From Chrysochromulina tobinii (lineage: Eukaryota): a DNA stretch of 33,654 bases. This document shows, in pieces, positions 2,261-32,880 of the stretch. The notes beneath the pieces were generated by a model, which saw nothing but the letters and a program-made list of their open reading frames with translations, had not been told where the DNA came from and did no database searches. The stretch spans positions 1 to 33,654 of the forward strand of contig JWZX01002254.1 of NCBI GenBank assembly GCA_001275005.1, in the 5' to 3' direction. Position 1 is the first letter of the stretch; every line of letters starts with the position of its first letter. Position numbers and translations under genes: made by a program.

Positions 2261-4562
2261 TCAGTTGTCGCCCTCGTCCTCATCCCCGTCCTCGTCATGC
2301 CGCCTGAATGGGTTGTGCTCGCTCCAGTACTGCACCCCCATCTCGATGCCCGGCGCCGCAGCCGCCTGCACGCTCGTCAGAGCACGCTGCAGGAGAGACT
2401 GCGGCTTTGGCACCGCGACCGGCTTGACCCTTTGCAGCCGCTTGTGGGGATTGAGGACGGCAAAGACCTTCCCGATCTCGCCCGGCGAGACACAGTTGTC
2501 ACTGTTGCTATCGACGGCACTGAAGAGCGCCTCGAACTGAGAGCGCGCCATCAGAGGAGTAGAGAGCAGCCGCAGCATCCGCTCGCAGCAGCGTGTATCG
2601 AGTGGCAGGTGGTCGAAGCGCGAGTCGAGTTCCACAGGCACCTGATGGGGGAGGCCATCAGCGCTCGTGAGAGAAGCACTCAGAGGCGTTAGAGATGCAA
2701 TCTCATGGCGCGAGCTCAAGCTCCATCGGCACCTCAGCTTCGTCAATCTCATGGCGCGAGCTCAAGCTCCATCGGCACCTCAGCTTCGTCCGAGGGGCGA
2801 GCATCAGGCGCAATCAGGGATCATCAGGCGCAATCAGTGAGCATCGGCACCTCAGCTTCGTCAGAGCCGCGGAAACTGCGTCCGAAACTTGTGCCGCCGC
2901 GGAAGCTGCTGTTCTCGCCGCGGGCGAGGGCCGCAAATGAGAAGCTGCTGTCACCCCCCCTTTTGAAGCTGCTGCTGTCACCCCCCCTTTTGAAGCTGCT
3001 GCCTCCGCCCCCCACCTTGAAGCTGCTCCCATCCCCCGCGCGGAAGGAGGCGCCATGTTGGGCACTTGCGCCCAGGTTGAACGACGTGTCGCTCGGCTCC
3101 TCGTCGAAGTTGACGTCGCTGAAGCGCTCGGCATTGAACCGGAGCACCCGCCACGCCTTGTGGGCGGCCTCGGACCCAATGTGGCCCGGCTCGCGGCACA
3201 GGTACAAGGCACCCACGAGGACGTGGATGTGGCGGTGCGGGAAGTGGTGTTCCCTCAAGATGGCGACGGACTTCCCAATGTACTTTGCTTGCCACCCCGG
3301 GATGAGCGCTCGCAGGTGTGTAGGGAGGGTCACGAGGGGATCCACCTGATGAGGGATGCAATCAAGGAAGGTCATCAGTGAGGTCATCAGGATCCTCAAG
3401 GGGAGGGTCACGAGGGGATCCACCTGATGAGGGACGCAATCAAGGAAGGTCATCAGTGAGGTCATCAGGATCCTCAAGGGGATCCACCTGATGAGGGATG
3501 CAATCAAGGAAGGCTATTCGAGAGGAGACCAGCCATGGAATCGCTGATGACCTTCCTTGAGTGCATCTTTGATTGCATCCCTCATCGGGAGGCCATCCAT
3601 GTCAATCAATGGCAATCCATGGCAATCAGGGGCCATCAGCGCCCATCAGCGACACTCACGTCTTCGGCCCGCTTGATGATCGGAGCAATCAGCGACGAGT
3701 GCACTTTCGCATCGATCGCCTCGCCCAGCATGATAGCGCTCTGAACCCCGTCGTCCAAGCTCATTCCACAGCTCTCGAGCCAGCTCAGCCCAATCCGATC
3801 GCCATCCAACTCCGCTCTGAGCGCCGTGCCGAGCACCGACGACGAGGGCGACTTCTGTTTCAGATAGCGCCGAAGAGGGTTCGCGAAGGATTCGTCACTC
3901 ATGGTCGACTTTCGGACGGTTTGAGCCCACTGACCCTTGAAGGCGAGTAGCCCGTTGATGCCCGTGCTCTTCGCGGCCGCACCGAGCGATTGGAATGCAC
4001 TCTCCTCGATGGCCTCAAGTGGTGACATGAAGTCTTTCGTGCTCATCTCGTCCAGCGCCTTTCGCGCCTCGCACATCACGGCGCAGAACTGAGCAAAGGT
4101 CAGGTCCGACCGGCCTTGCAATGCGGCCTCCTTGAACGGCGCGAGCACCTGATGAGGGTGGCAATCGGATGCGCTCAGTGAGCATCAGGCGCAATCAGAG
4201 AGCATCAGGCGCAATCAGCGAGCATAAGCGAGCATAAGCGGCGCAATCAGCGAGCATAAGCGGCGCAATCAGCGAGCATCGGCAGCGCCCTCACCGGCTC
4301 GCTAAACCCGTGGGGCATGTAAAGGGCCTCAGCCAGGAGGACCAGGAGGTCCGAGAAGGCGGCAGAGTCCACCCCGTGCGCACACATCCACCGGTCGGCA
4401 TTCGAAACCAACTCGGCGGTGGCGAGGTGCTCAGCACGGCGCCCGTGCTGGCTCGAATGGCTGCTCTTGAAAGTTTTGAAATCGAACGGGTTGGCGGGAA
4501 GACGCACGAGCTCGCCGCCACCCAGGGCTGTCCATGCTGCGCGCAGGGGTACGAGGGGATGG

Positions 4563-4605
<43 letters not shown>

Positions 4606-7600
4606 TGCCGCCGCCATCGTTCCTCTCGATGCTGTGACTGACTACTCCACCGACGTTGGCAGTTGCATTCACACTCCCGTCGGGGGCCTCGGGCGCATGG
4701 TGTGAATAGAGCGCCAGCAGAATGCTGAGGATGGCCTCATCATCGTATCCGAGGTCGCGCATCGTGAGCAGCATCGCGCCAGCTTCTGCTCGGCGTGGCA
4801 CGGGCACGATTTGACGAACCTCACGAGGCCGACCGTTCTTGACATTCGTCAGCTCCAGAAAGGCGGTTGAGCAGGCCTCGGCGCTGTTGCGCGCCTTATT
4901 CTTAGGCTTGAGCTTTCGGATCATCGTGACGAATTCGTCAAATTCTACCTTACCGGAGTGGTCGGCGTCCACCTGCCATAACGGGACGCACTCGCAATCA
5001 AGAGGTGCAATCAAGAGGTGCAATCAGCGGGGCAATCAAAAGGTGCCATCAGCGGTGCAATCAAGAGGTGCCATCAGCGGTGCACTCAGTGCACTCAGTG
5101 CAAACAGCAGTGCACTCAGTGCACCTCCTCGAAGAGCCTCTCGACGCGAGATAGCGGCAGATCGTCTCCGAGCAGCGGCAGCAACCGTGCGAACTCACTC
5201 AGCTTCATATCACGATCGAGCACGTCGTTTGTTTCCTTTTTGAGCTCCCCCTTGGCCTCACGCTTCTGCTTGCGCGTCTGTTGGGAGGCTTTCATCTGAC
5301 TGCCTGGCGACGGTCGACCGCCCGTACGGCGCAGCTCGTCCTCGTCCTCGTCGTCCGCACACACAGCGACGAGAACGACCCAAGCCTTGCGGAGCGCGTC
5401 ACGTGATCGGGACAGGTACACCGCATCGACGACTAGCGAGGCTTGCTCATCATCGAAGCCTGCCGTGAGGATGAGATGACCCACAATCAGACCAATCAGA
5501 GGCCATCAGAGGCAATCAGACGCAATCAGAGGATGCGATGGCCCACAATCAGAGGCCATCCAGAGGCCATCCAGAGGCCATGCAGAGGCCATTCAGACAC
5601 AATCAAGAGGAAATCAGAGGCCAATCAGAGACACTCAAGAGGCCCTCAGTGGTACTCACCTGCCGAGCGCAGGCGTGAGATGATCCGGCCCGCAGAAGCA
5701 AGCTGCTCGAGTGTAAGGCGATGGAGGAGCTGTCCACGGAGCACGATGAGCGATTGCAAGGCGGAGAGTGCTAAGCCAAAAGACGATTCTTCGACCGTGC
5801 GCTGCAACGGCAGGGCTCCGAGCACCTCACAGAACTCGCCGAAGTCGAGTTCATCTGATGAGGGAGGCGATCCGAGGCGCTCAGTGGCTGATGAGGGAGG
5901 CCATCAGAGATGATGAGGGAGGCGATCCAATCCGAGGCGCTCAGAGGCTGATGAGGGAGGCAATCAGAGATGATGAGGGAGGCAATCCAATCCGAGGCGC
6001 TCAGAGAGCATCCTACGTGAAATCAAAGAGCATCCGGCGTATTCAGAGAGTATCATCAGGCGTAATCACGGATCGTCAGATGATAGCACACCGTTGCCGT
6101 CCTGGTCGAAGACGGAGAAGAGCTGATCCGCCTCAGCTGCCGTCAGCCCCATCCCGCCAGTGATCAGACCGAGCACCGACTTCCAGTCGGACTTGCCGAG
6201 CACCCCCTTCTCACCCGCCGGCACAAAGACGCTCCATGCCGCGAGGAGCCGTTGGCGGGTCCCATGGAGGAGTCCAAGCACCACGTCACGCGCCTGGGCG
6301 GTCGTGTAGATGGTCGCACCCAATCAGAGGCCATTAGGGGCAATTAGGGGCAATTAGAGGCCATCCGAGGCCTTTCGAAGCCATCGGAGGTCATTAGAGG
6401 CAATTAGGGGCAATTAAAGGCAATTAGAGGCAATCAGAGGCCATTCGAAGCCATCGGAGGTCATTACCTGGGCGGTCTTGTAGCCAGCTGAAGCCATTGT
6501 GCGCGCGATGCCCGCCGCACGCTGCCGCGCGTCCCACTCAAGCCCGTACTCGCGTGCCACCTGTTCACCCAGAAGCCATCATGCGTCATCAGTCATCTTA
6601 GGTCATCAGAGGGTCATCAGAGGGTCATCAGAGGGTCATCAGAGGGTCATCAGAGGAAATGAACACACCTGTTCGACCCACGGAAACTCCGCGCCCGGGC
6701 GCAGCCGTGCATGCAACCTCGAATCGGCTGTGCTTTGCCGGAGGAGGCCCGGCCCCGAGGGCACAGCTGCGTGTCCTTTTCGGGTGCCGTTATAATGGTC
6801 CGCTGCAGCCATGGCTGTTGGTGAAACCAGGTGTGAGTGGCACTGAGTGGTGGTGGCAATCAGTCGCAATCAGTGGCGATCACGAGCACTCACCTGCCCG
6901 TTGGTCAAACCAGGTGTTGAGAAGGGTCTCCCAACGCCCCGCTTCACAAAGCCGTTCTTGCCTCTCCTCGACGAGCAGAGCTGAGACCGCGTCTGCGTGC
7001 AACGTGCGGGAAAGCATCTGCAGCGTGCGTAGATGACTGGCCTCGCCCGTCCCATCGGGCGCCGTCTCGAGCGCCACCTGCCTATTTTGTAGCGCCGTCT
7101 CGAGCGCCGTCTCGAGCGCCGTCTCGAGCTCCAAATCTCCCGCGGCGACGCCAACGGTCGAGCCGTTGGCAGCCGCCTCCGCGAGCGCGAGTGCCTCGGA
7201 GAGCCCACGAAGACGCTCGGGTCGCTCGACCCTGATGAAGCACGCAATCAGAGCCACTCAGGTGGGCCGTCACGAGGCACTCGGCGGCCATCACGAGGCA
7301 CTCGGCCGGCGTCCATCACGAGGCACTCTAGATGGCCGCATGTACAGCCATTCATAGCGCGCATGTGGCTCATCAATGGCAATCAAAGGCAATCAAAGGC
7401 AATCGAAGGCAATCAAAGGCAATCAAAGGCAATCAATGGCAATCCATGGCAATACGTACAGCCAAACGTAGCGCGCATGCGTCTCATCCTGCTCAGGGTT
7501 GAGCGACGTGCCCGGAAGCATGACGGGTGGGGCCAGCACCGCCGCGTCCGCACGCGCCCGTTGCTCTATCCCGAAGAGCATCCTTCGCGCCTCCCGTAAC

Positions 7601-8487: not shown

Positions 8488-8760
8488 CGTCGCTCGTCGG
8501 TCGCGGCGCCCCAAAAATCGCGATCCGCTAAAGATGGGTTTTTTCACAGGCTGCAAGGATGTCGAAACAGTGAAGTGGGGAGGCCGCTCAGGTTCCAAAT
8601 GTCACTTCCACATCGTGCAGGTAGGTCGCGATTTGGGTTTCGTCGAAAACGCTCCGTCTGTTTCATCCAGCGACTGACGTCGGCCACTCGCTGCGCACCT
8701 TAGTCCGGGTCGGCGATCTTTTGTACACTGTTGTCCCCCCCAGGGCAGTGACTCTTCCAT

Positions 8761-11700
8761 ATGCTCGTCCCGGACGGCCCCGTGGTCTTCGTGCTCGGCG
8801 GCCCAGGCAGCGGGAAGGGCACGCAGTGCGCCAAGCTCGTTGAGCGGTACGGAGCGGCGCACTTCTCAGCGGGCGACCTGCTGCGCGCGGAGGCGAAGAA
8901 GGGTACCGAGCAGGGCAAGATGATCGACGAGATGATAAAGCAGGGGGCGCTCGTGCCTACGCAGATCACTCTCGACCTGCTCAAGGCGGCGATCAAGTCC
9001 CGCAAGGGGCCCTACCTGATCGACGGCTTCCCGCGCTCGCTTGACAATCTGCAAGCCTTTGACAACCAGGTGTACGGTGGGTGTGCCCTAACGCTGGTTT
9101 ACGACCTGTCGGAGGCGGCCATGGAAGAGCGCCTTTTGAAGCACGGCGAGACGTCGGGCCGAGCCGACGACAACGCCGCCACCATCAAGAAGCGTTTCAA
9201 GACCTTTTGGGATGAGTCGATGCCGGTGATCGACATCCTTCGAGCACGCAAGGGGGGCCTGATGGTGTCGACCATCGACGCGTCCCGGACGCCCCAAGAG
9301 GTGGCGATCGATACCTGGCGCGTGTTCGACAAGATCGCAAACGTGATCAACATGCTCGTCCCGGACGGCCCCGTGGTCTTCATGCTCGGCGCCCCTGGCA
9401 CGGGTAAGGGCGCGCAGTGCGCTAAGCTCGTCGAGCGATACGGCGCTGCACACATTAAAGTGAGTGACCTGCTGCGCGCGGAGGTGAAGAAGGGTACCGA
9501 GCAGGGCAAGATGATCGATGAGATCATGAAGGAACATGACGTAGTCCCCGCTCCAATCACTCTCGACCTGCTCAAGGCGGCGATCAAGACCCGCAAGGGG
9601 CCATACATTATCGACGGCTTCCCGCGCTCGCTTGACAATCTGCATGCCTTTGACGACCAGGTGTACGGGGGCCATCGAGGCTTTGGGTGTGCACTCGCGA
9701 TCTTTTACTTCATGGCGGATGCGGAGATTGCGGTAAAGCGGAAGCTGGAGAGGAATCAAACGCAAAAGAAAGGCATCCAAGATCTCGACGAGCACGCCGA
9801 AGAGCTCAGGAAGAAATTCCACAAGTTCAAGGGGCAGTGTATGCCGGTGATCGAGAAACTGAAAAATCGCGGCTTGCTCGCGACCGTCGACGGGCACCCC
9901 TCTTTCAATGCCGTGTTCACCGCCACCTGCAAGGCCTTCGATAAGGTGGCCGCCCCTCTCGTGACGTGGCGAAAGGCCCAGGTGACCGAATACCTCGCGA
10001 AGCATGCCATGAAGGAGCGGCTCGAGGCGGCCTTGCATGCGGCCGTTGGCTCCCAGGCGCCCGACCCGGCCAGTTTTGTCGCGGAGTGCATCGCACCCCC
10101 GGGCCCGCGCCGCCCACGAACCGCGTGCGGCACGTTCTTGCGTATTGTCACCGTGAACGACGTGTACAAGCTCGACAACTACCCCCGCGTCGCGAGCGCG
10201 GTCGCCGCCGCTAAGAAAGCGGCCGCGGCCCTCGACTGTGTAGTGATCTCAACCTTGCCAGGTGATGAGCGCTGACGACCTCCGATGACCCCCGATGGCC
10301 TCTGATGACCTCTGATGACCTCTGATGACTCGACTCTGTGTGGTGATCTCGACCTTGGCAGGTGACTTCTTGTCTCCGTGCCCTCTCACCGCTCTCGACG
10401 GCGGGCGGGCGATGACCGAGGGGCTCAACAAGGCTAAGATCGAATACGTCATGCTCGGCAACCACGAGCTTGACTATGGCTTCCAGTGGTCCGTGGATCG
10501 CATGCAAGCCTTCAAGGGCAAGGTGGGCCATGATTGCCTTGACTGCGATTGCTCTCGATCTGTCACTGAGGGGCTGCGCGTGCTCGATGCTCTGATGGCT
10601 CTGATGGCTCTGATGGCTCTGATGGCTCTGAGGGGCTGCGCGTGCTCGATGCTCGATGACCTTCTCTTGACGACTTACTCTCGTGCTCGATGCGCGATGC
10701 GGCAGTGCATCAACTCGAACATCACGACGAAGCCAATCGACACGTTCCCCAAGTACGCCGCCATTCCACGTGTGGGTTGATGACCTCTGAGGACCGCTGA
10801 TTGCGTCTCTCATGAGGGCTTGATGACCTCTGAGGACTACTGATTGCGTCTCTCATGATGGCTTGAGGACCTTTGAGGACCCTGATTACGTCTCTCCTCT
10901 CACAAGTGCGTCCATGATGACCTCTGGGGACCTCTGATGACCTCTGATTGCTTCCTCTCATAGGTACGACGTGATCCACGTGGGCGACCGAAGGGTGCTC
11001 ATGACCGCCTTCCTCTCGGCGGATACCTCCATCTACGCCCCGGCCAACACACCTACGGTCATCCCGCCCGCCGAGGCAGCGGTGGCGATTTGGAACGAAG
11101 CCAAGGAGGCCTTGGGGTACACCCCAGACGTGCACCTGCCCATGACGCACCAACTGGTGCCCGAAGACAAGGCCTTCTGCCTCGCGCTCGCCAAGCACAA
11201 GGAGCTGGGCCCACGCACGCCTATCGTACTGGGCGCGCACGAGCACGAGGTATACATTGACTCGTGTGGTGGTGCAAAGATCATCAAGACGGGCGCCGAT
11301 GCTGAAGAGATTGGATACGTTGATATTTGGTGGGGGACCGATGGCGTGATGCACTCAAAGGTAGAGCTGGTGCCCGGCTGTGAATTTGACGAGGAGCCTG
11401 AGGCGAAGAAGTTCTGCCTGGAGCAGGAGGACTTTGTTCGGCGGGTGATGTCCGCACCGCTGATGCCAATCCCGGCGTTCATGAGCTCCAAGACGGTGCG
11501 CCACTCGCCTTCTGGGGTGGAGATGATGACCTCTCTGATGACCACTGATTTCCTCCCTCATCAGGTGCGCCACTCGCCTTCTGGGGTGGCCACGCTACTC
11601 CTCACCCAAATGCTGCGTGGATTCCGAAAAGAGAAAGTGGAGCTGTGCGTGGTCCACGGCGGCAGTGTGCGCGCTGGCAAGGAGTATCAGGCCAATACGA

Positions 11701-12326
11701 CCTTTACGATGGGCGATCTCTTCGCGGAGTTCGCATTTGATGGACCTATGGCGGTGATCTTGGTCAAGGGCTCGATCCTTCAAGCATCCACGGCCAACAC
11801 GCGCAACGCTCCCAAGCCCGCGCCCGACTTCCTCCACTTTGATGAAGGAGTCGTCATCGAGCCCGAGAAGCATGCCATCCTCTCTGTTGGGGGCGTTCCC
11901 TTCGACCCCGAGAAGATGTACAAGATTGCGATCAACCAGCTGCTGCTCACCGGGCTCAACGTGATCGAGCCTCTGATGAGCTACGTGCGCGCCAACGTCA
12001 AGGTGCCCACCGAAGAGAGTTGCCGCCTGAGCAAGAACGTGGTCATCGAGGTCTCCATGAAGGACGTCTGGCGCCACCTGATCGACTTCCAGTCTTTTGA
12101 TGAGGACGGGAACGGAGCGATCGAGGACGCGGAGTTGCGCGCGGGGATCAAGAAGTTCTTCGCGCAGGTGGCGAGCCGACCAGAAGGAATCTCCGTCGAG
12201 GAGGTGGCCGCCCTCATCAAGAAGAAGCAAGGGCACCTCTCCCTCGTCGAGCAGCTCGTCAAGACGCTGGACACCAACGGCGACGGCTACATCGACGAGG
12301 AAGAGATGCTTGCGTTGTCCCACTGA
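8761..12326 (+). CDS. Fusion protein: two adenylate/UMP-CMP kinase domains + Dpy-30/RIIa-like motif + 5'-nucleotidase (metallophosphoesterase and C-terminal domain) + EF-hands, 5 exons, ~1000 aa
   Basis: Predicted exons 8761-10261, 10362-10522, 10706-10752, 10964-11495, 11565-12326 (3003 nt, phases consistent). P-loops GGPGSGKGTQ and GAPGTGKGAQ; DGFPR twice; EYLAKH...LEAAL...PDPASFVAE; NDVY, GDFLSP, GNHELD, MTH, GAHEH, GGSVR; EF loops DEDGNGAIEDAE and DTNGDGYIDEEE. Confidence 0.88.
11496..11564 (+). mobile_element. Candidate young introner-like intron: perfect 25-bp duplication plus a 44-nt insert supplying the acceptor
   Basis: gtgcgccactcgccttctggggtgg is identical at 11496-11520 and 11565-11589. 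The insert is agatgatgacctctctgatgaccactgatttcctccctcatcag. The mobile-element interpretation is inference. Confidence 0.55.
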
Positions 12327-13909: not shown

Positions 13910-16654
13910 TCATCGCTTCTTCTTGCGCTTCGTCTCCTTGCCTTTGGCGCCCTTGTTGATGAAGATCTTCATCGCCCTCTTCTTGAGCGCCTCGCGATCG
14001 AGCACCTGGTTCAGCGGGTCATCGGCAGCTCCCTCCTCGTCGCCCTCCTCGCCCTCGTCGCCTTCCTCCTCGTCGTCCTCGTCCCCGGGCACCTTGAACT
14101 CCTTCGCAGACGCGCCCGCCGCCATCAGCAGCGGAGCGAGCGCCTCCGCCGACTCCATCCCATCGCGGGCCACCAGTCCCCGCCCCTTGAGAGCGGCGAC
14201 CAAGCTCATACGGTACTCCTCTCCCGTCATCACTGGCGAGGGTGCCCCAGGCGCCGTACTGGGCGAGAAGGGGGACCTCTCATCAGGCGCCGTACTGGGC
14301 GCAGGCGGCTCCGTCACCACCGCCAGTCCGCCCTCAGCCTCTTCACCGTCGGCGTCGCCCGGGACGGCGCCTTCGGCGTCGGCCGGTCTGGCACTGCCCT
14401 CTGCCGCTTCGGAACTGCCAGCCGCCTCGTCGGCGGCATTGGACAGCGCCGCCGCCGCCACCGCCGCCGCCACCGCCGCCACCGCCGCCTCCTCCTCCTC
14501 CTCCGCCGCCTCCGCCTCCGCCACCGTCGCCGTCGCCGTCGCGTTCGCCGGCAGCGCCGTCCTGTGCGCCGGCAGCGCCGCCTTCCCGATGAGCTCGCGG
14601 AGCAGCCCGAGGCTCTCCTCGAGCGCCTCGACGGTCAAGTGGTCCTGGCTCCTCTCCGCCTCCAGCGCGCCCGGGACGGCGCCGGGTCGGGCGCCGTGTC
14701 GAGCGCCCTTGAGGGCCATCTGCGCCGTCGTGGGCGTCGAGCCCTCCTTCGCGGGCGTCGTCCCGGGCGTGCCGAAGGCCTGCTGCACCGCGCTCTCGGC
14801 GGAGCGCTTCGCCTTCACCTTGCCTGGAGAGGGCGAGGCCTCGGGCAGCATCAGGTCAGCACGGGAGTCGAGCACGGCGGCGGTTTCGCCACTCAAATCT
14901 CCCGCCTTGAGCAGCCCCGTCGGAGGCGGGACTGAGGGCGGATGCAGGATCATGAGCCCCAGCGCGAGATCGCTGGCGTGCTGCTGCCGACCGCCCTTAC
15001 GCCAGACGCCCGTCCCTTTGCCCTCAGTGCCCGAGACGGCGCCCGCGAGCGGCGCGGCGCCGCGGAGCCCCTTGGCAGTGTGGAGCATGCGGCTGAGCTG
15101 CGCTACAGCGGCGTGGGCGTGCTGCATGATGGCCGCCGTGCGCTTCGCTCGTGAACGAGCCGCGCGCAGCTGGCGCTGCTGCTCGAGGCGAGACTCCTCG
15201 CCCTGGCCCTGTGGGGATTGGGCGCGCGCTGTGGTGAGCGCTTGCATGCAGGGCAGGTAACATCAGTGGCAATCAACGTACCTGGCCCTGTGGGGATTGG
15301 GGGCGCCCTGTGGGGATCGGCGGCGAGCCGGCGCGGTTATCGGACGTGTAACGGAGCTGCAGCAGCTTCTTCTTGCGCTCGTGAAACCTGAGGACGGGCG
15401 CCCGATACGGCGCGCGATCAGAGCTCCTCGGCGGCAATCAGAGGTCCATCAGCGCACTCCTTGGAGAGCAATCAGAAGCTCATCAGAGGTCCATCAGAGG
15501 TCCATCAGAGGTCCATCAGCGGTCCTTCAGAGGTCCATCAGAGGTCCATCAGCGTACTCCTTGGAGAGCAGCTCGATCGACCTGGTCGCCTGTCGATGGA
15601 GGTTGGCTAGCAGAGCGAAGGTCTCCTCCTGCGCCTTGAACTTCTCAACGATCAGGTCAGCTTCCGAGGTGCCCATCACCTGGCGCGAAGAAGGGCGCAC
15701 ACTTCTTATTAGTCGTCATCCAATGGGTACTCAGAGGTCATCCGAGGCACTCAGAGGTCATCCGAGGCACTCAGAGATCATCAGAGGTCATCAGAGGTCA
15801 TCCGTGGCACTCAGAAAGCACTCTGCGCGCCCTCAGCCACCCTCAGCGCACCTCCGCAATCAAGAGCCATCACGAGTCATCACGCGCCATCACGCGCCCT
15901 CACGCGCCCTCACGCGCCCTCAGCGCACCTCCGCTATCGAGTCGAAGATGAGCTGGAGCTTGGCGATGCGATCTCGCTCATCGTCGAGCGAGCCGACGGA
16001 TGTGAGGTGCTCGTTGCGAGAGAGCGCGTCCAGCCGCTCCGCCTCCAGAGCACGCAGCTTCTCCGCCGTGCGTGTCGCGTGATCCGCCGCGGCCTGCTGC
16101 CGGGCCTGCAGCTTGTCGCGCTTGGCCTGTAGCTTCTCCGCCTGCGCGGCGAGCTCGAACGAGAGTGTCTTATCCTGACGGAAGAGCTCTGCCTCGGCCG
16201 CGTTGCGCACGTCCGTCGCGTCCTTGAGCATCAGGTACAGCTTCTTCGCGTCCGCCTGCTTCGCGCTCGATTGGAAGTCGATCTCGTTCAGGTCGCGCCG
16301 GTAGGTCTTCTCCTCGCTGCGGATGCGCTCGATCATCAGCCCGTAGGTGCTATGGTCGTGGTTGGCCACATCAATCTCCGCCTCGACGTCCGCGAGCTCC
16401 GCCTCGAGCTCCGCGACCTCCGCCGCGTCCTCGTTGGCGCCAGCCGACAAGTCTGCCGACTTTGTGAAGCCGCTGGTACGCTCGACCATCTGGTGGAGCT
16501 TTTGCCGCAGCGTGATGCACTCGGCAGTGATCTCATCGTGCCGCTTGCGCAGCTTCGTCGCCTCCGCGTTCAGCGCCCTCAACGCCACCTCCGGCTCGGG
16601 CTCCGGCTTCAACTCCGTGCTCATGGCGCAGAAACCCGAACCGCCAGCGTCCAT
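13910..16654 (-). CDS. Coiled-coil protein resembling outer dynein arm docking complex subunits (ODAD1/ODAD3-like), 4 exons
   Basis: Predicted exons 16654 (or 16624)-15929, 15679-15558, 15387-15282, 15202-13910, phases consistent. The spliced product reads ...KLQLIFDSIAEVMGTSEADLIVEKFKAQEETFALL...KKKLLQLRYT, which resembles the docking-complex family as I recall it. Low-complexity acidic/basic C-terminus. Confidence 0.72.
15203..15281 (-). mobile_element. Family A introner-like intron (79 nt) with a perfect 20-bp duplication supplying the acceptor AG
   Basis: Sense sequence gtacgttgattgccactgatgttacctgccctgcatgcaagcgctcaccacagcgcgcg + cccaatccccacagggccag. The last 20 nt are identical to the upstream exon end (15282-15301). 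The core matches introns 31025-31098 and 32151-32229. Confidence 0.65.
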
Positions 16655-16788: not shown

Positions 16789-18255
16789 ATGAGCGCTGCG
16801 TTGCGTGCGTGCCAGAGAGTCGCGATGATCGATGCCACCGCGCCGGATGGCACGCGTCTGCACCTCTCCGCGCATTCAGTGAGCGGTTACAAGGGCGTGT
16901 TCGAGTCTGCGGGACGCTACCAGGCTCAAGTGCGCGTCGGTGGCAAACAAAAATACATTGGCATCTTTCCGACGAAGATGGAGGCCGCGATCGCCGTCGC
17001 GCGCGCCATAGGCGAGCCATCGGATGATCCCGATGCCGATCTTGCGACGGCGACGGACGTTCGCGACGGAGGCCATGGCGCGGCCACGGAGGACGCAGAC
17101 ATGGCCGAGGCCGAGGCAGACATGGCCGAGGCAGGGGACGCTGGAAGTGGGCCCCAGGTGGAGGTCACATCGACCAAGGTGGAGGTCACATCGACCAAGG
17201 TAGACGACGACGACGACGACCAGGGCGGCTCGTCCATCGGTCCGTACTCGGCCGAAGTGGTCGGGCAGATGCGCGGGCCGGAGCTACGCCGGGCGGTGCG
17301 CGGCGCCTTGACCGAGTCGGGCAAGACGCAGACTGCCTTCGCCATCGCGCTTGGTGTGAACCCCGCCTACCTGTCCCAGTGGCTGAACCAGAACTGGTAC
17401 GGGCACACGCATGGCAGGCCCAAGGTGGAGAGATTCATCGAGGGGAGGGTGCGCGCGTACCTTCGCGGCGGGGCCCTCGAGCCCGTGCATGCATGCATGG
17501 GGCCGCCGGCACCTGGCGGCGCCACCAGCAGTGCGCCCACCCAGCCCATGCATGCATGCAAACATGCACAAGGCGGCGCCACCAGCAGTGCGCCCGCCCA
17601 ACCCATGGAACGGCGGCGCCAGCCTAGGGCGACGTCGACGGCAGCGACGGGTGACGCGGCATTGCGCCAACGACTCTTTTCGAATCTGGTAGACGAGGTG
17701 CAAGGCGGGAGCTCGTCGACTGATGACCTCTGATGATCCTTGATGACACTTGATGACACTTGATTGCATCCCTCATCGGGTGCGAGGCGGGAGCTCGTCG
17801 ACTGATGACCTCTGATGATCCATGATTGCATCCCTCATCAGGTGCAAGGCAGGAGCTCGACAAGCACGAATGGTGGTGCGAGCGGCGGTGCGAGCGGCAG
17901 GGACGGCGGAGGAGGAGGAGGCCGCCATCATCGGGCCCTGAGCGCCGTCCTGAGCGTCGAACGGCCCGTCGCGTCGCCAGAGTCGATCGCGGCAGCGGAG
18001 CGAGCGAAACGGGACGCGCTCATGGAGGGCTTAGCCTTCGAACCAGACCGCAAGGGCCCCACTGGGTTGCTCGGGGTGCGGGCACGCGGTGCGGGCGACG
18101 CGCTGCGGTATACGGCCACGATCACCTGGATCACTGGACGGCTGAAGCGCAAGGCTCGTGTGCTGGGCACCTCCTTCCTGGCGGCCGAGGAGGCGGCGCT
18201 CTCCATCGCTCGTGCGCGGAAGGCCCTCAAGACGGGACAAATGCTGCCCTTTTGA
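16789..18255 (+). CDS. AP2-domain DNA-binding protein with a central Cro/C1-type HTH and a second AP2-like domain, 2 exons, ~440 aa
   Basis: Predicted exons 16789-17697 and 17842-18255. AP2: SGYKGVFESAGRYQAQVRVGGKQKYIGIFPTKMEAAIAVAR. HTH: TQTAFAIALGVNPAYLSQWLN. Second AP2-like domain: TGLLGVR...RYTATI...LGTSFLAAEEAALSIAR. Start codon uncertain (16657, 16789 or 16825). Confidence 0.82.
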
Positions 18256-25622: not shown

Positions 25623-26408
25623 TCACATCTCGTCCTCCTCGTCGCCCCACACGCAATAGAGCGCCGGCTTGGGCAGGCCACGCTCATGCGCCGAGACGAG
25701 GTCGATGCGGCGCAGCCACTCCAAGTGACGCTTCCTGCAGTGCTTCCTCACGGCGTCGGTCGACGCGTAGAGCTTTTTGCAGCCGGGGAACCGGCAGCGG
25801 AAGCGGCTCGTCCCGGGAGGCGGTGCGCCTGCGCGTTGGGACAGGCGCGCGCGCGCTCGGTCAGGCGAGGGAATCGCCAAAGGGACATGTATGCGAACTT
25901 GGGGGATCAGTGGCCGACTCCCAGTAGGAATGGCGCGGCTGGGTGAGGGCGGCCGCGCACCGTCCTTGGGATTTCGCTGCCGCTTGGGCGAGCTTTGTCC
26001 GGGCGTATCGTAGTCGAGCGGCCGGAAGGTCTTTGGCGACCCGTCGCTCGGCGAGGAGTACCCTACACCGCTCAGATGTGGCCATCGCTTCGCATCGTGG
26101 TCGCCCCAGCGTCCCATCCCCCCAAGGTCGGCGCCCGTCGGCGCCGCATCGTCCTCCTCGCGAGAGTCTTCGTCAGGCGATGAGACCTCCACGCACGCGG
26201 TGTGCAGACCCAGCAGCGCGGCGACCGCATTCTGCTCGTACGCAGACTCCACGGCAGACTGAGGGCTGGAGTCCTCGTGCCTGACGTCCATCGCCGCGCC
26301 AGCAGCCGGTTCCGAGAACGAGCTAGCTGGCGACGGCAGGCCGGCGCCAACGAGCTCGAGATCCGGGGCTTTGGCTGCCGACAGATCGATGGTCGTCACC
26401 ATCGACAT
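25623..26408 (-). CDS. Single C2H2 zinc-finger protein
   Basis: C-terminal FRCRFPGCKKLYASTDAVRKHCRKRH (C-x4-C-x12-H-x4-H) with a disordered N-terminus. The ORF-track start at 26438 is GTG, so ATG 26408 or 26402 is preferred. Confidence 0.82.
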   Translation of the reverse strand: MSMVTTIDLSAAKAPDLELVGAGLPSPASSFSEPAAGAAMDVRHEDSSPQSAVESAYEQNAVAALLGLHTACVEVSSPDEDSREEDDAAPTGADLGGMGRWGDHDAKRWPHLSGVGYSSPSDGSPKTFRPLDYDTPGQSSPKRQRNPKDGARPPSPSRAIPTGSRPLIPQVRIHVPLAIPSPDRARARLSQRAGAPPPGTSRFRCRFPGCKKLYASTDAVRKHCRKRHLEWLRRIDLVSAHERGLPKPALYCVWGDEEDEM

Positions 26409-29174: not shown

Positions 29175-32100
29175 ATGTTCAAAGAATTCGACAAGGACGG
29201 CGACGGGAATGTCACCGTTGGCGAGGTTTTTCAGGGCGTATTTACCAAGATATCTGACCTTTTTACCAAGGAGACGAGGGAAGAGTACAAGAAGCGCATA
29301 TTTCAGCGAGCGGCGAGTGCGCTCCGGCACTCGCAGGAGGTCAGGGCGTGGAGCACGTGGGTCGACTCTATGCGCCAGCGGGCTGAAAACATGCGCGTGA
29401 TACGGAAGTGCGTGCTCGGCTTCATGTTTGCCAAGCAGCGAGCGTGCATTGAGTGCTGGCACGACGAGGCGATGGCCCGTGGCGAGGCGAAGTTGCGCGC
29501 TCAGAAAGCCTTGGCGCGGTTTAAGCATAACAACGAGAGCCGCGCCATCAATCACTGGGTCTTCATCTACAGGGAGGACAAGGCCGCGCGCCAGCGGCTC
29601 AAGAGCCTGATGTCACGCGTCTCCCCCGAAGGGCAGGCGAAGTTGAAGGTGCTTGATATCTTGCGTGCGATGCACGCCAAAGCGCTGCTGTTCCGCAAGG
29701 CTGCGATGGCGCTCTTGAACAGCCAGCTGTTCCGAGCGTACAATGCGTGGCACGAGCTGGCGGAGGACAACAAGCGAACCGCGGAGAAGATTCGGCGGGT
29801 ACTCGTGCGCCTCGACCCGGTGTGCATGCTGATGGCCTCCTGATTACTCGTGCGCCTCGACCCGGTGTGCATGCTGATGACCTCCTGATGACCTCTGATG
29901 ACCTTTGATGACCTCTGATGACTCGTGCGCCTCGACCCGGTGTGCATGCTGATGACCTCCTGATGACCTCTGATGACCTTTGATGACCTCTGAGTACTCG
30001 TGCGCCTCGACCCGGTGTGCATGCTGATGGCCTCCTGATGGCCTTTGTGTGACCTCCGAGTGACCTCCGATGGCCTCTGAGTGACCTCCGATGGCCTCTG
30101 ACGGCCTCTGGTGACCTCTGACGGCCTCTTGATGACCTCTGAGTGCCCTCTGATGGCCTTTGATGGCCTCTGATGGCCTCTGAGTGCCCTCTGAGTGACC
30201 CTTGATGACACCTGATGACCTCTGGTGGCCTCTGGTGGCCTCTGGTGGCCTCTGGTGGCCTCTGATGGCCTCTGATGGCCTCCCACACCAGGTGATGCGG
30301 AGCATGCTCAAGGTGATCGAGCGGCTCAGCATGCACGCGCAGCAAGTACACCAGTTGGAGTTCGCCGCGCGCGCCCTGCTGAACGCGGCGCCGAAGCGGG
30401 CGTTCCTCACATGGGCGGGTAGGCGAGAGCAAGTGATCGCACAGCGGCGGGCGGTGGTTTGGCTCGCCGTGCAACGCGGCCATCGCGTGGGCACCTTGCA
30501 AGAGATGTTTGAGGAGATCCGCGAGATTTCGGCCGTTGATGACTTGCTGCAGGTGAGTGCTAATGACCTCTGATGACCTCTGATGACCTCTGATGACCTC
30601 TGATGACCTCTGATGACCTCTGATGACCTCTGATGACCTCTGATGACCTCTGATGACCTCTGATGACTTCGGCCGTTGACGACTTGCTGCAGATGACAGA
30701 CGAGCTCGGGATGACGCCGCTCCTCTGGGCGTCCAAACGGGGATTCGCTGACATTGTCGAGGTGCGCGCGCCGAGGTGGGGCCTTGAGATATGGGGTTTG
30801 CAGGCGCTTTACCCTCTCCCACCCTCTCCCCACATCTCCCCACATCTCCCCACATCTCCCCACATCTCCCCACATCTCCCCACATCTCCCCTGTCCTCAG
30901 GTCCTCTTGACCTTCGCCGGCGACGTGCAGGCCGTCATCAGCGCTCGCGATGCTGAGGGCTCCACGCCGCTGCACCACGCCGCCCGCCGCCACCACAACG
31001 ACATCGTCGCCATGCTGATCGAAGGTACGTTGATTGCATGCGGATGGCCTGCCTTGCATGCAAGTGCTCACCACAGCGCGGCGCCCTGCTGATCGAAGCC
31101 GGCGTCAACGTGCACCAACCCAACGACGATCAGTCGACCGCGCTGCACTGGGCGGCTCGCAAGAACAATGCGCTTGCCATCCGCATGCTGATTGCAGCTG
31201 GCGCGGACCCGCATTGCAAGAACAAGTGGGGGGCGACGGCTCTCGAGAATGCGCAGTTTGGGGACAATCTGGAGGCGGTCTGTCTGCTCGCGAGGGACGA
31301 GGCCACTCGCAAGCAGGCCGAGGAGGAGCTCCAGCTCCAGCGCAAGCTTCGGTGCGATTGATTGAGATTGAGATTGAGATTGAGATTGAGATTGAGATTG
31401 AGATTAAGTAGCAGGCCGATGAAGAGCTCCAGCGCCAGCGCCAGCTTCGGTGCGTCAACTGAGGGCCACCGAGTGCCACGGATGGCCACTGATGGCCACT
31501 GATGACCGCGGGTGATCACATGTAATTGCCGCTGATGAGCACTGATGAGCGCTGATGAGCGCTGAAGAGCAACCCATTGCGCCCCTCATCAGGCCGACAA
31601 GCTCGGAGCTCTGATGACCTCTGATGACCTCTGACGACGCGATTGATTGCCTCCCTCATCAGACCGACAAGCTCGGAGCTCTGATGACCTCTGATGACCT
31701 CTGACGACGCGATTGATTGCCTCCCTCATCAGGCCGACAAGCTCGGAGCTGGCCGCCAGGCTGAGTGAGGCCGCGGGCTACGCCATCGAGCAGCGTGAGA
31801 AGAATCGGATGCGCATTCGAGGGCTGCACGACGCACGGGCCGCCATGGATGCCGCGGCCCAGGAGCAGGCGCGTTGATTGCTCACTGATGGCTCACTGAT
31901 TGCTATTGATTGCTATTGATTGCTCTTGATTGCGGCCCAGGAGCAGGCGCGTTGATTGCTCACTGATGGCTCACTGATTGCTATTGATTGCTATTGATTG
32001 CGGCCCAGGAGCAGGCGCGTTGATTGCTCACTGATGGCTCACTGATTGCTATTGATTGCTATTGATTGCGGCCCAGGAGCAGGCGCGTTGATTGCTCACT

Positions 32101-32880
32101 GATGGCTCACTGATTGCTATTGATTGCTATTGATTGCGGCCCAGGAGCAGGCGCGTTGATTGCTCACTGATGACCACCTGCCTTGCATGCAAGTGCTCAC
32201 CTACAGCGCGTTCGGCTCTTGTGGAGCAGGCTCGAGCTCAGAAGCGACAGCGTCTCGCCTTCAGTGCCCTCGCAAAGGCGGTGCAGGCATCCTCGAAGGC
32301 TCCCGCCAGGGCTTCGGCTGCTGCCGCCAAGGGTTGGGGCGTCAGCGTCAGCCGTCCCGGGCGTATCGGCGGCGACAGCAGCAGCATTTGGCTCGCGTGC
32401 ACAGCTGAAGAGTTGTCCACACTCGAGCGCTGCGTGGCCGAAGCGGCTGCGGCCGTGGAGGAGGCAGGTGATTTTGCCATGCTCATGGTCCAAGAGCGCC
32501 TAGCTGAGGGACAGGCGCGATTGGAGCAGTTACGTTCGCTCGCCGCCTCCGCCGCCGCCGCCGGCGCCGGCACGCCGTATCCCTCCGAGGACACGTTTGA
32601 CGCCTCGGGGGGGGCGGGCACGCCCACGCCCACCTCCGAGGAGTTTGCCTCGCCGACGAAGCACGCTGCCTCGCCTTTTGAAAGCGAGTCGACGACTCCT
32701 TCCCCATCATCCCGCTCGCCCACCTCCCATCGCATGTCCCACCGGCACCAAGGTGGCGAAGGCACCAAGGAATCCCCCATGGAGCGCCAGCTGCGCAAGG
32801 CGAAGCTCGCGGGCAAGAAGAGGAGCGGCTCGCCACGTAAGTCCACCAGCAAGTCCACCAGCCCCAGCAAGTCGCGCTGA
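29175..32880 (+). CDS. EF-hand + Sfi1-like (centrin-binding-type) Trp repeats + ankyrin repeat protein, 7 exons, ~712 aa
   Basis: Predicted exons 29175-29819, 30292-30552, 30693-30761, 30901-31024, 31099-31351, 31733-31868, 32230-32880. The last intron is GC-AG and phases are consistent. EF loop DKDGDGNVTVGE; RAxxxW motifs, the first three Trp 33 aa apart; ankyrins GMTPLLWAS, GSTPLHHAA, QSTALHWAA, GATALENA. The 5' end is uncertain. Confidence 0.8.
29801..30029 (+). repeat. Four copies of the exon1-end/5' splice site (actcgtgcgcctcgacccg|gtgtgcatgctgatg) separated by TGATGACCTC units
   Basis: Copies start at 29801 (the real donor), 29846, 29921 and 29996. Confidence 0.9.
30561..30667 (+). repeat. 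Perfect intronic (TGATGACCTC)n array
   Basis: Nine exact units at 30571-30660, plus one variant and one partial flanking unit. Confidence 0.97.
30831..30890 (+). repeat. Intronic (CACATCTCCC)6 array
   Basis: Six exact 10-bp units directly before the acceptor ctgtcctcag (30900). Confidence 0.95.
31025..31098 (+). mobile_element. Family A introner-like intron (74 nt) with a 17-bp duplication (1 mismatch) supplying the acceptor AG
   Basis: gtacgttgattgcatgcggatggcctgccttgcatgcaagtgctcaccacagcgcgg + cgccctgctgatcgaag, versus the exon end cgccatgctgatcgaag. Removing it restores the ankyrin sequence MLIEAGVNVH. Confidence 0.65.
31361..31402 (+). repeat. (ATTGAG)7 intronic microsatellite
   Basis: Seven exact units shortly after the donor at 31352. 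Confidence 0.93.
31573..31750 (+). repeat. Three tandem acceptor cassettes, 70-bp period
   Basis: ccctcatcag|(g/a)ccgacaagctcggagct, with AGs ending at 31592, 31662 and 31732. Confidence 0.9.
31854..32229 (+). repeat. Five tandem copies of the exon-end + GC donor unit (68-78 bp period), ending in a family A core
   Basis: gcggcccaggagcag|gcgcgttgattgctcactgatg starts at 31854, 31932, 32000, 32068 and 32136. The last copy continues cctgccttgcatgcaagtgctcacctacagcgcg...ggagcag. Confidence 0.9.

What the first reader, a model, noticed from the sequence alone, without database searches (positions are those of the whole stretch)
11496..11589. Snapshot of a newborn intron: perfect 25-bp duplication, 69 nt, in frame and stop-free
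Seen: the 25-mer is exactly duplicated around a 44-nt insert made only of TGATGACC units and the family B acceptor. Unspliced, it adds 23 aa (VRHSPSGVEMMTSLMTTDFLPHQ) inside the 5'-nucleotidase region. Spliced at ACG|GTGCGC...CAG|GTGCGC, it restores a single VRHSPSGV. Inference: the minimal and probably most recent event in the window, tolerated even if splicing is inefficient.
Basis: partly seen in the sequence, partly recalled or inferred. Interest (0 to 1): 0.75.

Follow-up and report, generated by a model that had tools for sequence, protein, structure and literature searches.

The report
Young intron built from duplicated exon
In a gene of the alga Chrysochromulina, this 69-base stretch is a real intron that is cut out of the RNA and is missing in close relatives; it is made of a 26-base copy of the neighbouring coding sequence plus a splice signal likely borrowed from other introns, and the same layout recurs at other sites, so it likely shows one way new introns are still being made.

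Summary
Real and spliced. The duplication is 26 bp (11495-11520 = 11564-11589) around 43 other bases. RNA contigs in 3 of 3 runs laid skip exactly these 69 nt. A sister lineage at 97% protein identity has the empty site in genomic ORFs, as does the C. parva homologue: a recent gain. It is young, not newborn: the filler already varies among conspecific records. The public gene model P0105 wrongly keeps the 23 aa. The anatomy recurs: 5 of 13 RNA-supported introns carry a junction-anchored exon duplication versus 0 of 156 controls, in two mirror forms, and the sister lineage appears to carry its own such intron where this window is empty (protein evidence only). Best reading: one-step duplicate-and-capture during break repair or template switching; the duplicate supplies the GT donor, a copied intron tail supplies the acceptor (inferred, 0.6). 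It works like splice-site co-option by introners but fails their tests (no end-to-end copies in the window, no TIR, long variable duplication); a published survey lists 0 introner families for C. tobinii. The scan had no look-alike note.

The parts
11496..11564 (+). Intron 4 of the gene, 69 nt, GT-AG, phase 0 (the finding)
   Evidence: RNA contigs of X12, X14, X16 join 11494 to 11564, equivalent to this cut within the repeat (table 8)
11495..11520 (+). Copy 1 of the 26-bp duplication; its GT (11496-11497) is the donor
   Evidence: donor placement from GT-AG rule and restored frame
11521..11563 (+). 43-nt filler: two TGATGACC units, a likely branch point (CTGAT, 11545-11549; consensus recalled), pyrimidine tract and acceptor
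   Evidence: best match elsewhere in window 37 of 44 columns, longest shared exact string 13 nt
11546..11564 (+).
   Evidence: 17 matches in window, 0.00 expected
11564..11589 (+). Copy 2 of the duplication = head of exon 5, coding VRHSPSGV
8761..12326 (+). Host gene: two adenylate kinase domains, 5'-nucleotidase, EF hands; exons 8761-10261, 10362-10522, 10706-10752, 10964-11495, 11565-12326; 1000 aa when spliced
   Evidence: Pfam; open frame; P0103 matches at 998 of 1000 residues, P0105 equals the 1023-aa retained form
10262..10361 (+). Intron 1, mirror type: insert carries the donor, a 26-nt decayed copy of the upstream exon tail supplies the AG
   Evidence: score 20 over 26 nt; RNA spacing of 211 nt fits; absent in L002/L003
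10523..10705 (+). Intron 2, no junction duplication; 183 nt, in frame and stop-free
10753..10963 (+). Intron 3, same type as the finding but with a decayed ~20-nt duplication; shared with the sister lineage, so older
   Evidence: score 10; sister ORFs begin with the translated intron-3 tail
9945..9946 (+). Empty site in this window where the sister lineage appears to hold its own ~65-nt duplication-plus-acceptor intron
   Evidence: 5 of 6 members of the P0093 cluster reach the site and read VAAPLVTW (one has M for T), then a repeat-derived peptide, then the same exon head in a shifted frame; inferred from protein only
30553..30692 (+). Mirror-type intron, 28-nt duplication with 2 mismatches
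   Evidence: RNA joint in X16, X14; score 24
31025..31098 (+). Mirror-type intron, 20-nt duplication with 2 mismatches
   Evidence: RNA joint in X14, X15, X13; score 16
17698..17841 (+). Putative intron of the same type as the finding, 18-nt duplication with 1 mismatch
   Evidence: sequence only, score 16; no RNA joint seen
6294..6467 (-). Putative mirror-type intron, 16-nt duplication with 1 mismatch
   Evidence: sequence only, score 14; no RNA joint seen

Best explanation
This is a spliced 69-nt GT-AG intron that close relatives lack, and it likely arose in one step when 26 bp of exon were duplicated around a 43-nt piece likely copied from the 3' end of another intron. Shown: it is removed from RNA, removal restores the ancestral protein, and the site is empty in a sister lineage and in outgroups. 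Inferred: at a staggered break or stalled fork, synthesis ran about 26 nt past a latent G|GTG site, switched to an existing intron tail, copied it to its CAG, and returned to the same G|GTG, perhaps guided by the few shared bases around AG|GT. The duplicate then offers the donor and the copied tail offers branch point and acceptor. One step is inferred because 26 bp alone would shift the frame. The mirror event (copied intron head plus duplicated upstream exon tail) would explain the other class of introns here. That the intron is real and recent I put at about 0.95; the confidence below is for the mechanism.
For: Splicing: 3 of 3 RNA runs laid (3 of 6 RNA holders) skip the 69 nt; all 6 RNA holders have 0.93 of the words against 1.00 for 10 DNA holders; P0103 and P0099 lack the 23 aa. 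Gain: 0 of 12 listed P0001-cluster members that span the site have it, and 8 of these start in intron 3, so are genomic; 0 of 25 spanning homologues; L002/L003 are one open frame across all four intron sites. Age series: decayed duplicate in intron 3 is shared with the sister, perfect duplicate is not. Recurrence: 5 of 13 RNA-supported introns (4 of 12 without the focal one) score 9 or more against 0 of 156 cross-intron pairs; lengths 16-28 nt vary; both polarities occur; a reciprocal case in the sister. Filler resembles other intron tails (37 of 44 columns) but has no identical copy in the window; 16 of 17 acceptor motifs lie sense to their gene (gene strands partly from my reading of the sequence). 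Precedent: staggered-break repair leaves direct repeats at new Daphnia introns (PMC4202315) and makes tandem duplications in cells (PMC8355091).
Against: No donor template was found; only 34 kb could be searched, as no genome is held. 8 of 13 RNA-supported introns show no duplication at the threshold, and only 2 of 10 sequence-only candidates do. The precise register of insert end and splice site can come from selection alone. A fixed 3' end, variable 5' end and long variable duplication also fit target-primed reverse transcription (recalled). The sister's DNA was not seen. The RNA runs share year and habitat label and may be one campaign. Introns 1-3 rest on contig spacing, not listed joints.
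Confidence: 0.6

Rival explanations
1. A non-autonomous mobile element (SINE-like or other introner) inserts with a long, variable target-site duplication, carries one splice site and co-opts the other from the duplication.
For: Same logic of splice-site recruitment as published introners. Shared 3' motif at 17 places; a second shared cassette at 3 exact matches; one inverted copy inside an intron and one possible antisense case in an exon at 14248-14301. Introners are common in marine Chrysochromulina MAGs.
Against: No end-to-end copies in the window (best 37 of 44 columns); no inverted repeat pair in 10200-11700 and folding no better than shuffles (z 0.28-0.65); duplication length not fixed; both donor-carrying and acceptor-carrying forms; C. 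tobinii listed with 0 introner families, though that pipeline filters partial and microsatellite-like similarity and depends on gene models that miss this intron.
Confidence: 0.24
2. Two steps: a full-length repeated intron inserted first, and one end was later overwritten by a local duplication of the adjacent exon.
For: Local 64-78 bp tandem copies of intron tail plus exon head are frequent (3323-3506, 17698-17841, 31583-31750), so splice junctions here do duplicate after the fact.
Against: All 5 records with the insert share the same duplicated start; no intermediate allele seen; the focal intron is only duplicate plus 43 nt.
Confidence: 0.1
3. An old intron that was lost in the sister lineage and outgroups.
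For: L002/L003 lack all four introns, as a retrocopy would; the C. parva gene may be a paralogue.
Against: The sister keeps intron 3 but lacks this one; the duplicate is still perfect; 0 of 25 homologues have the insert, several from long contigs.
Confidence: 0.04
4. Not an intron but a 23-aa coding insertion, as in the public gene model P0105; or an assembly artefact.
For: In frame and stop-free; P0105 (KOO30275.1) includes it.
Against: RNA contigs skip it in 3 of 3 runs; it splits a stretch that no homologue interrupts, next to invariant R202 and S206; present in several DNA-derived records with variants.
Confidence: 0.02

Closest known systems
Introners that carry one splice site and co-opt the other from the target-site duplication (Gozashti et al. 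2022, 10.1101/2022.06.06.494994 / PMC9860276; review PMC11282704)
   Same: One splice site comes with the insert, the other from duplicated exon; mRNA restored; introners occur in marine Chrysochromulina MAGs.
   Different: Duplications in the passages read are 3-8 bp (4 bp in their Chrysochromulina example); here 16-28 nt and variable. Introner copies are similar end to end; these fillers are not. C. tobinii was screened and is listed with 0 families.
Intron gain by staggered double-strand-break repair in Daphnia pulex (PMC4202315; review PMC3443670)
   Same: New introns flanked by a direct repeat of adjacent exon, later internal duplications, presence/absence among relatives.
   Different: Daphnia exon-intron repeats are 4-12 bp, inserts are AT-rich and mostly of unknown source. 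Here repeats are longer and the filler resembles the genome's own intron ends.
Tandem genomic duplication of an AGGT-bearing exon segment (review PMC3443670)
   Same: Duplicated exon sequence becomes intron and supplies a splice site.
   Different: That model needs only duplicated sequence and takes both sites from AGGT. Here the target is ACG|GT, has no AG, and 43 foreign bases bring the acceptor.
Non-LTR retrotransposon / SINE insertion by target-primed reverse transcription (recalled, not from a call)
   Same: Long variable target duplication, fixed 3' end, variable 5' end, short tandem units.
   Different: No parent element or poly(A) tail seen; the mirror class has its fixed end at the 5' side; copies are almost all sense and inside genes.

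Membership tests
U2-type spliceosomal intron | Removed from mature RNA | tested here: met
   3 of 3 RNA runs laid skip 69 nt
U2-type spliceosomal intron | GT...AG ends with branch-like motif and pyrimidine tract | tested here: met
   GT 11496, CAG 11562-11564, CTGAT 11545-11549; exact cut is ambiguous within the repeat, branch point not mapped
Recently gained intron | Empty orthologous site in close relatives and outgroups | tested here: met
   0 of 12 spanning P0001-cluster members, 0 of 25 homologues, L002/L003
Introner | Multiple copies similar from end to end in unrelated genes | tested here: inconclusive
   Not in the 34-kb window (best 37 of 44 columns over the filler only); whole genome not held
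Introner (MITE type) | Terminal inverted repeats | tested here: not met
   0 inverted pairs in 10200-11700; a 7-bp stem no better than shuffles
Introner (MITE type) | Short, fixed-length target-site duplication | tested here: not met
   26 bp here; 16-28 nt across sites
Introner | One splice site carried, the other co-opted from the duplication | tested here: met
   Donor lies in the duplicate, acceptor in the filler
Introner / SINE | Autonomous partner or parent element in the genome | not testable with these tools
   No genome held
Staggered-break repair intron gain | [quoted passage not shown] | tested here: met
   5 of 13 versus 0 of 156 cross-intron pairs; no set of old conserved introns was available as a second control
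Staggered-break repair intron gain | Dependence on an end-joining or template-switch pathway; identified template | not testable with these tools
   No template found in window
Pure tandem genomic duplication | Intron made only of duplicated exon, both sites from AGGT | tested here: not met
   43 non-duplicated bases; target reads ACG|GT

The most novel reading that the evidence does not exclude
The C. tobinii lineage is gaining introns genome-wide by a transposon-free 'half-intron capture': one end of an existing intron is copied into an exon while a 16-28-nt exon duplication creates the other splice site, in either polarity. It is ongoing (reciprocal gains in sister lineages within one gene), invisible to introner pipelines and missed by gene models, and could account for a large share of this genome's introns.
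Probability: 0.35. Interest if true: 0.8.

Novelty: new variant of a known kind. Interest (0 to 1): 0.6.

Why it matters
The source of most newly gained introns is unknown. This locus gives a clean, datable case: spliced RNA, an empty site in a 97%-identical relative, an older decayed example in the same gene, and an apparent reciprocal gain in the relative. If the pattern holds genome-wide, it is a route to new introns distinct from classical introners and directly testable with one public genome plus RNA-seq. In practice, in-frame copies are absorbed into public protein models (P0105), so haptophyte annotations and the intron counts built on them are probably off.

Tried and rejected
No whole genome was held, so no genome-wide count. 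Three motif scans of viral contigs found 0 matches and one of genome contigs found 1 match in a bacterial MAG, taken as chance and not used. Loci L004 and L005 were weak hits and not used. PDB search gave only EF-hand proteins, nothing on the nucleotidase site. Hairpin or TIR origin of the filler: rejected. Retention rate: not measurable, all runs are contigs. Summed contig depth over repeat-rich bins is far above single-copy depth in X9, but the tool says this is no copy number, so it is not counted. P0038 (100% identical, no insert) may be RNA or an intronless allele; unresolved. The AlphaFold model does not decide tolerance; no fold search was run. Replitrons were read as a lead and dropped: no terminal direct repeats or transposase here. 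Two papers were not held, so the E. huxleyi genome paper and the Huff et al. introner paper are recalled only and carry no claim. Earlier scan notes on AT-ending introners concern other organisms.

Full report
Observation. The maximal exact repeat is 26 bp, 11495-11520 = 11564-11589, with 43 other bases between. The 69 nt from 11496 to 11564 start with GT and end with CAG. Left in, they add 23 residues without a stop. The filler is two TGATGACC units, linkers and an acceptor motif that occurs 17 times in the window with up to 2 mismatches, against 0.00 expected from shuffles. DNA run X9 has one contig across 10602-13745 with no differences, though it may be the window's source.

Host gene and organism. 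The gene at 8761-12326 encodes two adenylate kinase domains, a 5'-nucleotidase and EF hands. With four introns removed it gives 1000 aa without internal stops. P0105, named by its sources as C. tobinii flagellar adenylate kinase (KOO30275.1), is letter for letter the 1023-aa form with intron 4 left in. So the organism is taken to be C. tobinii, and the public model misses this intron.

Splicing. I laid 3 of the 6 RNA holders on this region. In X12, X14 and X16 a single contig runs 10964-11494 and then 11564 onward with no letters between (table 8). In X16 the same contig has 211 nt between 10258 and 10964, exactly what exons 2 and 3 plus 3 bases require, which supports introns 1-3 by spacing. 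All 6 RNA holders have 0.93 of the sampled words, all 10 DNA holders 1.00. The runs may be one campaign. Two protein records lack the 23 aa: P0103 (998 of 1000 residues match) and P0099, which still begins in the tail of intron 1. Contigs drop rare forms, so retention is not measured.

Gain and age. I aligned 26 of 30 hits (P0024, P0027-P0029 left out); 25 span the site and none has the insert. In the P0001 cluster, 15 of 30 members were listed, 12 span the site, none has it; 11 are 96.7-97.4% identical, and 8 begin with a peptide that matches the translated tail of intron 3, so they are genomic and share intron 3. L002 and L003, 74% identical in DNA and encoding the C. parva model P0064 exactly, are one open frame over all four sites; this gene could be a paralogue or retrocopy, so it is the weaker witness. 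In the P0091 cluster, 15 of 104 members were listed, 7 span the site, 5 carry the insert; two differ inside the filler (DFIP, DCLP for DFLP). The DCLP allele is compatible with the commoner acceptor motif, so it may be ancestral (inference). The intron is young but has had time to vary.

The anatomy recurs. From 15 joints shown (12 more not shown) I kept the 9 that read as introns; with the four above that makes 13. Five have a junction-anchored exon duplication scoring 9 or more (4 of 12 without the focal one), against 0 of 156 cross-intron pairs. Two copy the downstream exon head and take the donor from it (10753, 11496). Three copy the upstream exon tail and take the acceptor from it (10262, 30553, 31025). 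Eight show no such signal. Among 10 sequence-only candidates 2 pass. Lengths run 16-28 nt. In the sister lineage, 5 of 6 members of the P0093 cluster read VAAPLVTW (one with M for T), then LHASAHH, then RWPPHS or GGRPTRDVA; the window's own exon head at 9946 reads RWPPLS and GGRPSRDVA in shifted frames, and LHASAHH is the translation of a cassette found in window introns. This implies a ~65-nt intron of the same build at a site empty here. It rests on protein only.

Mechanism. The filler is close to other intron tails (37 of 44 columns) but shares no exact string over 13 nt with them in the window, and TGATGAC units lie sense to the gene 51 times against 2. There are no terminal inverted repeats. 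A 26-bp duplication alone would shift the frame, so duplication and filler likely came together. I favour break repair or template switching that copies an intron end and rejoins 26 nt back, with the shared bases at AG|GT setting the register (0.6). Selection could set that register instead. A mobile element with long target duplications is the main rival (0.24). A possible test case lies at 14248-14301: an 18-bp duplication with an 18-nt filler ending in the acceptor-like motif, antisense in an exon and not spliced; it is a single short case. That invariant R202 matches a substrate-binding arginine of bacterial UshA is recalled and untested.

Comparison with print. Introners recruit splice sites from duplications of 3-8 bp in the passages read (10.1101/2022.06.06.494994; PMC11282704). 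Marine Chrysochromulina MAGs have many (PMC9860276 supplement, places 1-32 and 41-70 of 214, file cut when stored). C. tobinii is in that screen's input table and has 0 families in PMC12130899 (supplement row, 12 of 14 files searched; main-text passages). Daphnia neointrons have exon-intron repeats of 4-12 bp (PMC4202315 passages). Models of tandem duplication and break repair are from PMC3443670 passages, and duplication at staggered breaks from PMC8355091 passages. Passages of PMC4580454, PMC12480563 and PMC10288648 do not describe these introns. Ten searches listed no paper describing long-duplication introns in this alga; subscription papers are outside the library and two were not held, so absence from print is not established.

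Verdict. A real, spliced, recently gained intron, and one of a recurring class. It works like introner splice-site co-option and like break-repair intron gain, but fails the MITE-type introner tests and has longer duplications than the Daphnia cases. New variant of a known kind; interest 0.6.

Noticed in passing
window 9945-9946; proteins P0093, P0109-P0112: The sister lineage appears to carry its own duplication-plus-acceptor intron here, where the window is empty: a reciprocal gain in the same gene, read from protein translations.
   Followed up: partly
window 14248-14301: 18-bp exact duplication with an 18-nt filler ending in an acceptor-like motif, antisense inside an exon of a minus-strand gene, in frame; RNA contigs run through it.
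   Followed up: partly
window 10523-10705: Intron 2 is also a multiple of 3 and stop-free in frame, 61 codons.
   Followed up: yes
window 15209-15281 (-): Intron with a 21-bp exact exon duplication where RNA uses an earlier AG inside the duplicate, leaving 6 extra coding bases.
   Followed up: partly
window 3544-3592: Inverted copy of the acceptor cassette inside a putative intron, 76-78% complementary over 49 nt to the sense copies.
   Followed up: no
window 3323-3506, 17698-17841, 31583-31750, 31854-32172: Tandem copies of 64-82 bp that span an intron end and the adjacent exon edge, so splice junctions are being re-duplicated.
   Followed up: no
window 15233-15250 (-), 31055-31072, 32184-32201: A second shared intron cassette with 3 exact matches; the closest thing to a conventional introner in the window.
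   Followed up: partly
window 31869-32229: RNA-supported intron that reads best as GC-AG, with 9 bases shared across the junction.
   Followed up: partly
window 25829-25960 (-): 132-nt intron spliced in X16, X15, X13 but run into by a contig in X14, a possible retained form.
   Followed up: no
L003 1932-4546; window 8756-9646: The adenylate kinase domain is tandemly repeated: two copies in the window, about four in L003.
   Followed up: no
proteins P0008, P0012: Two distant homologues carry in-frame insertions at other positions that look like retained introns.
   Followed up: no
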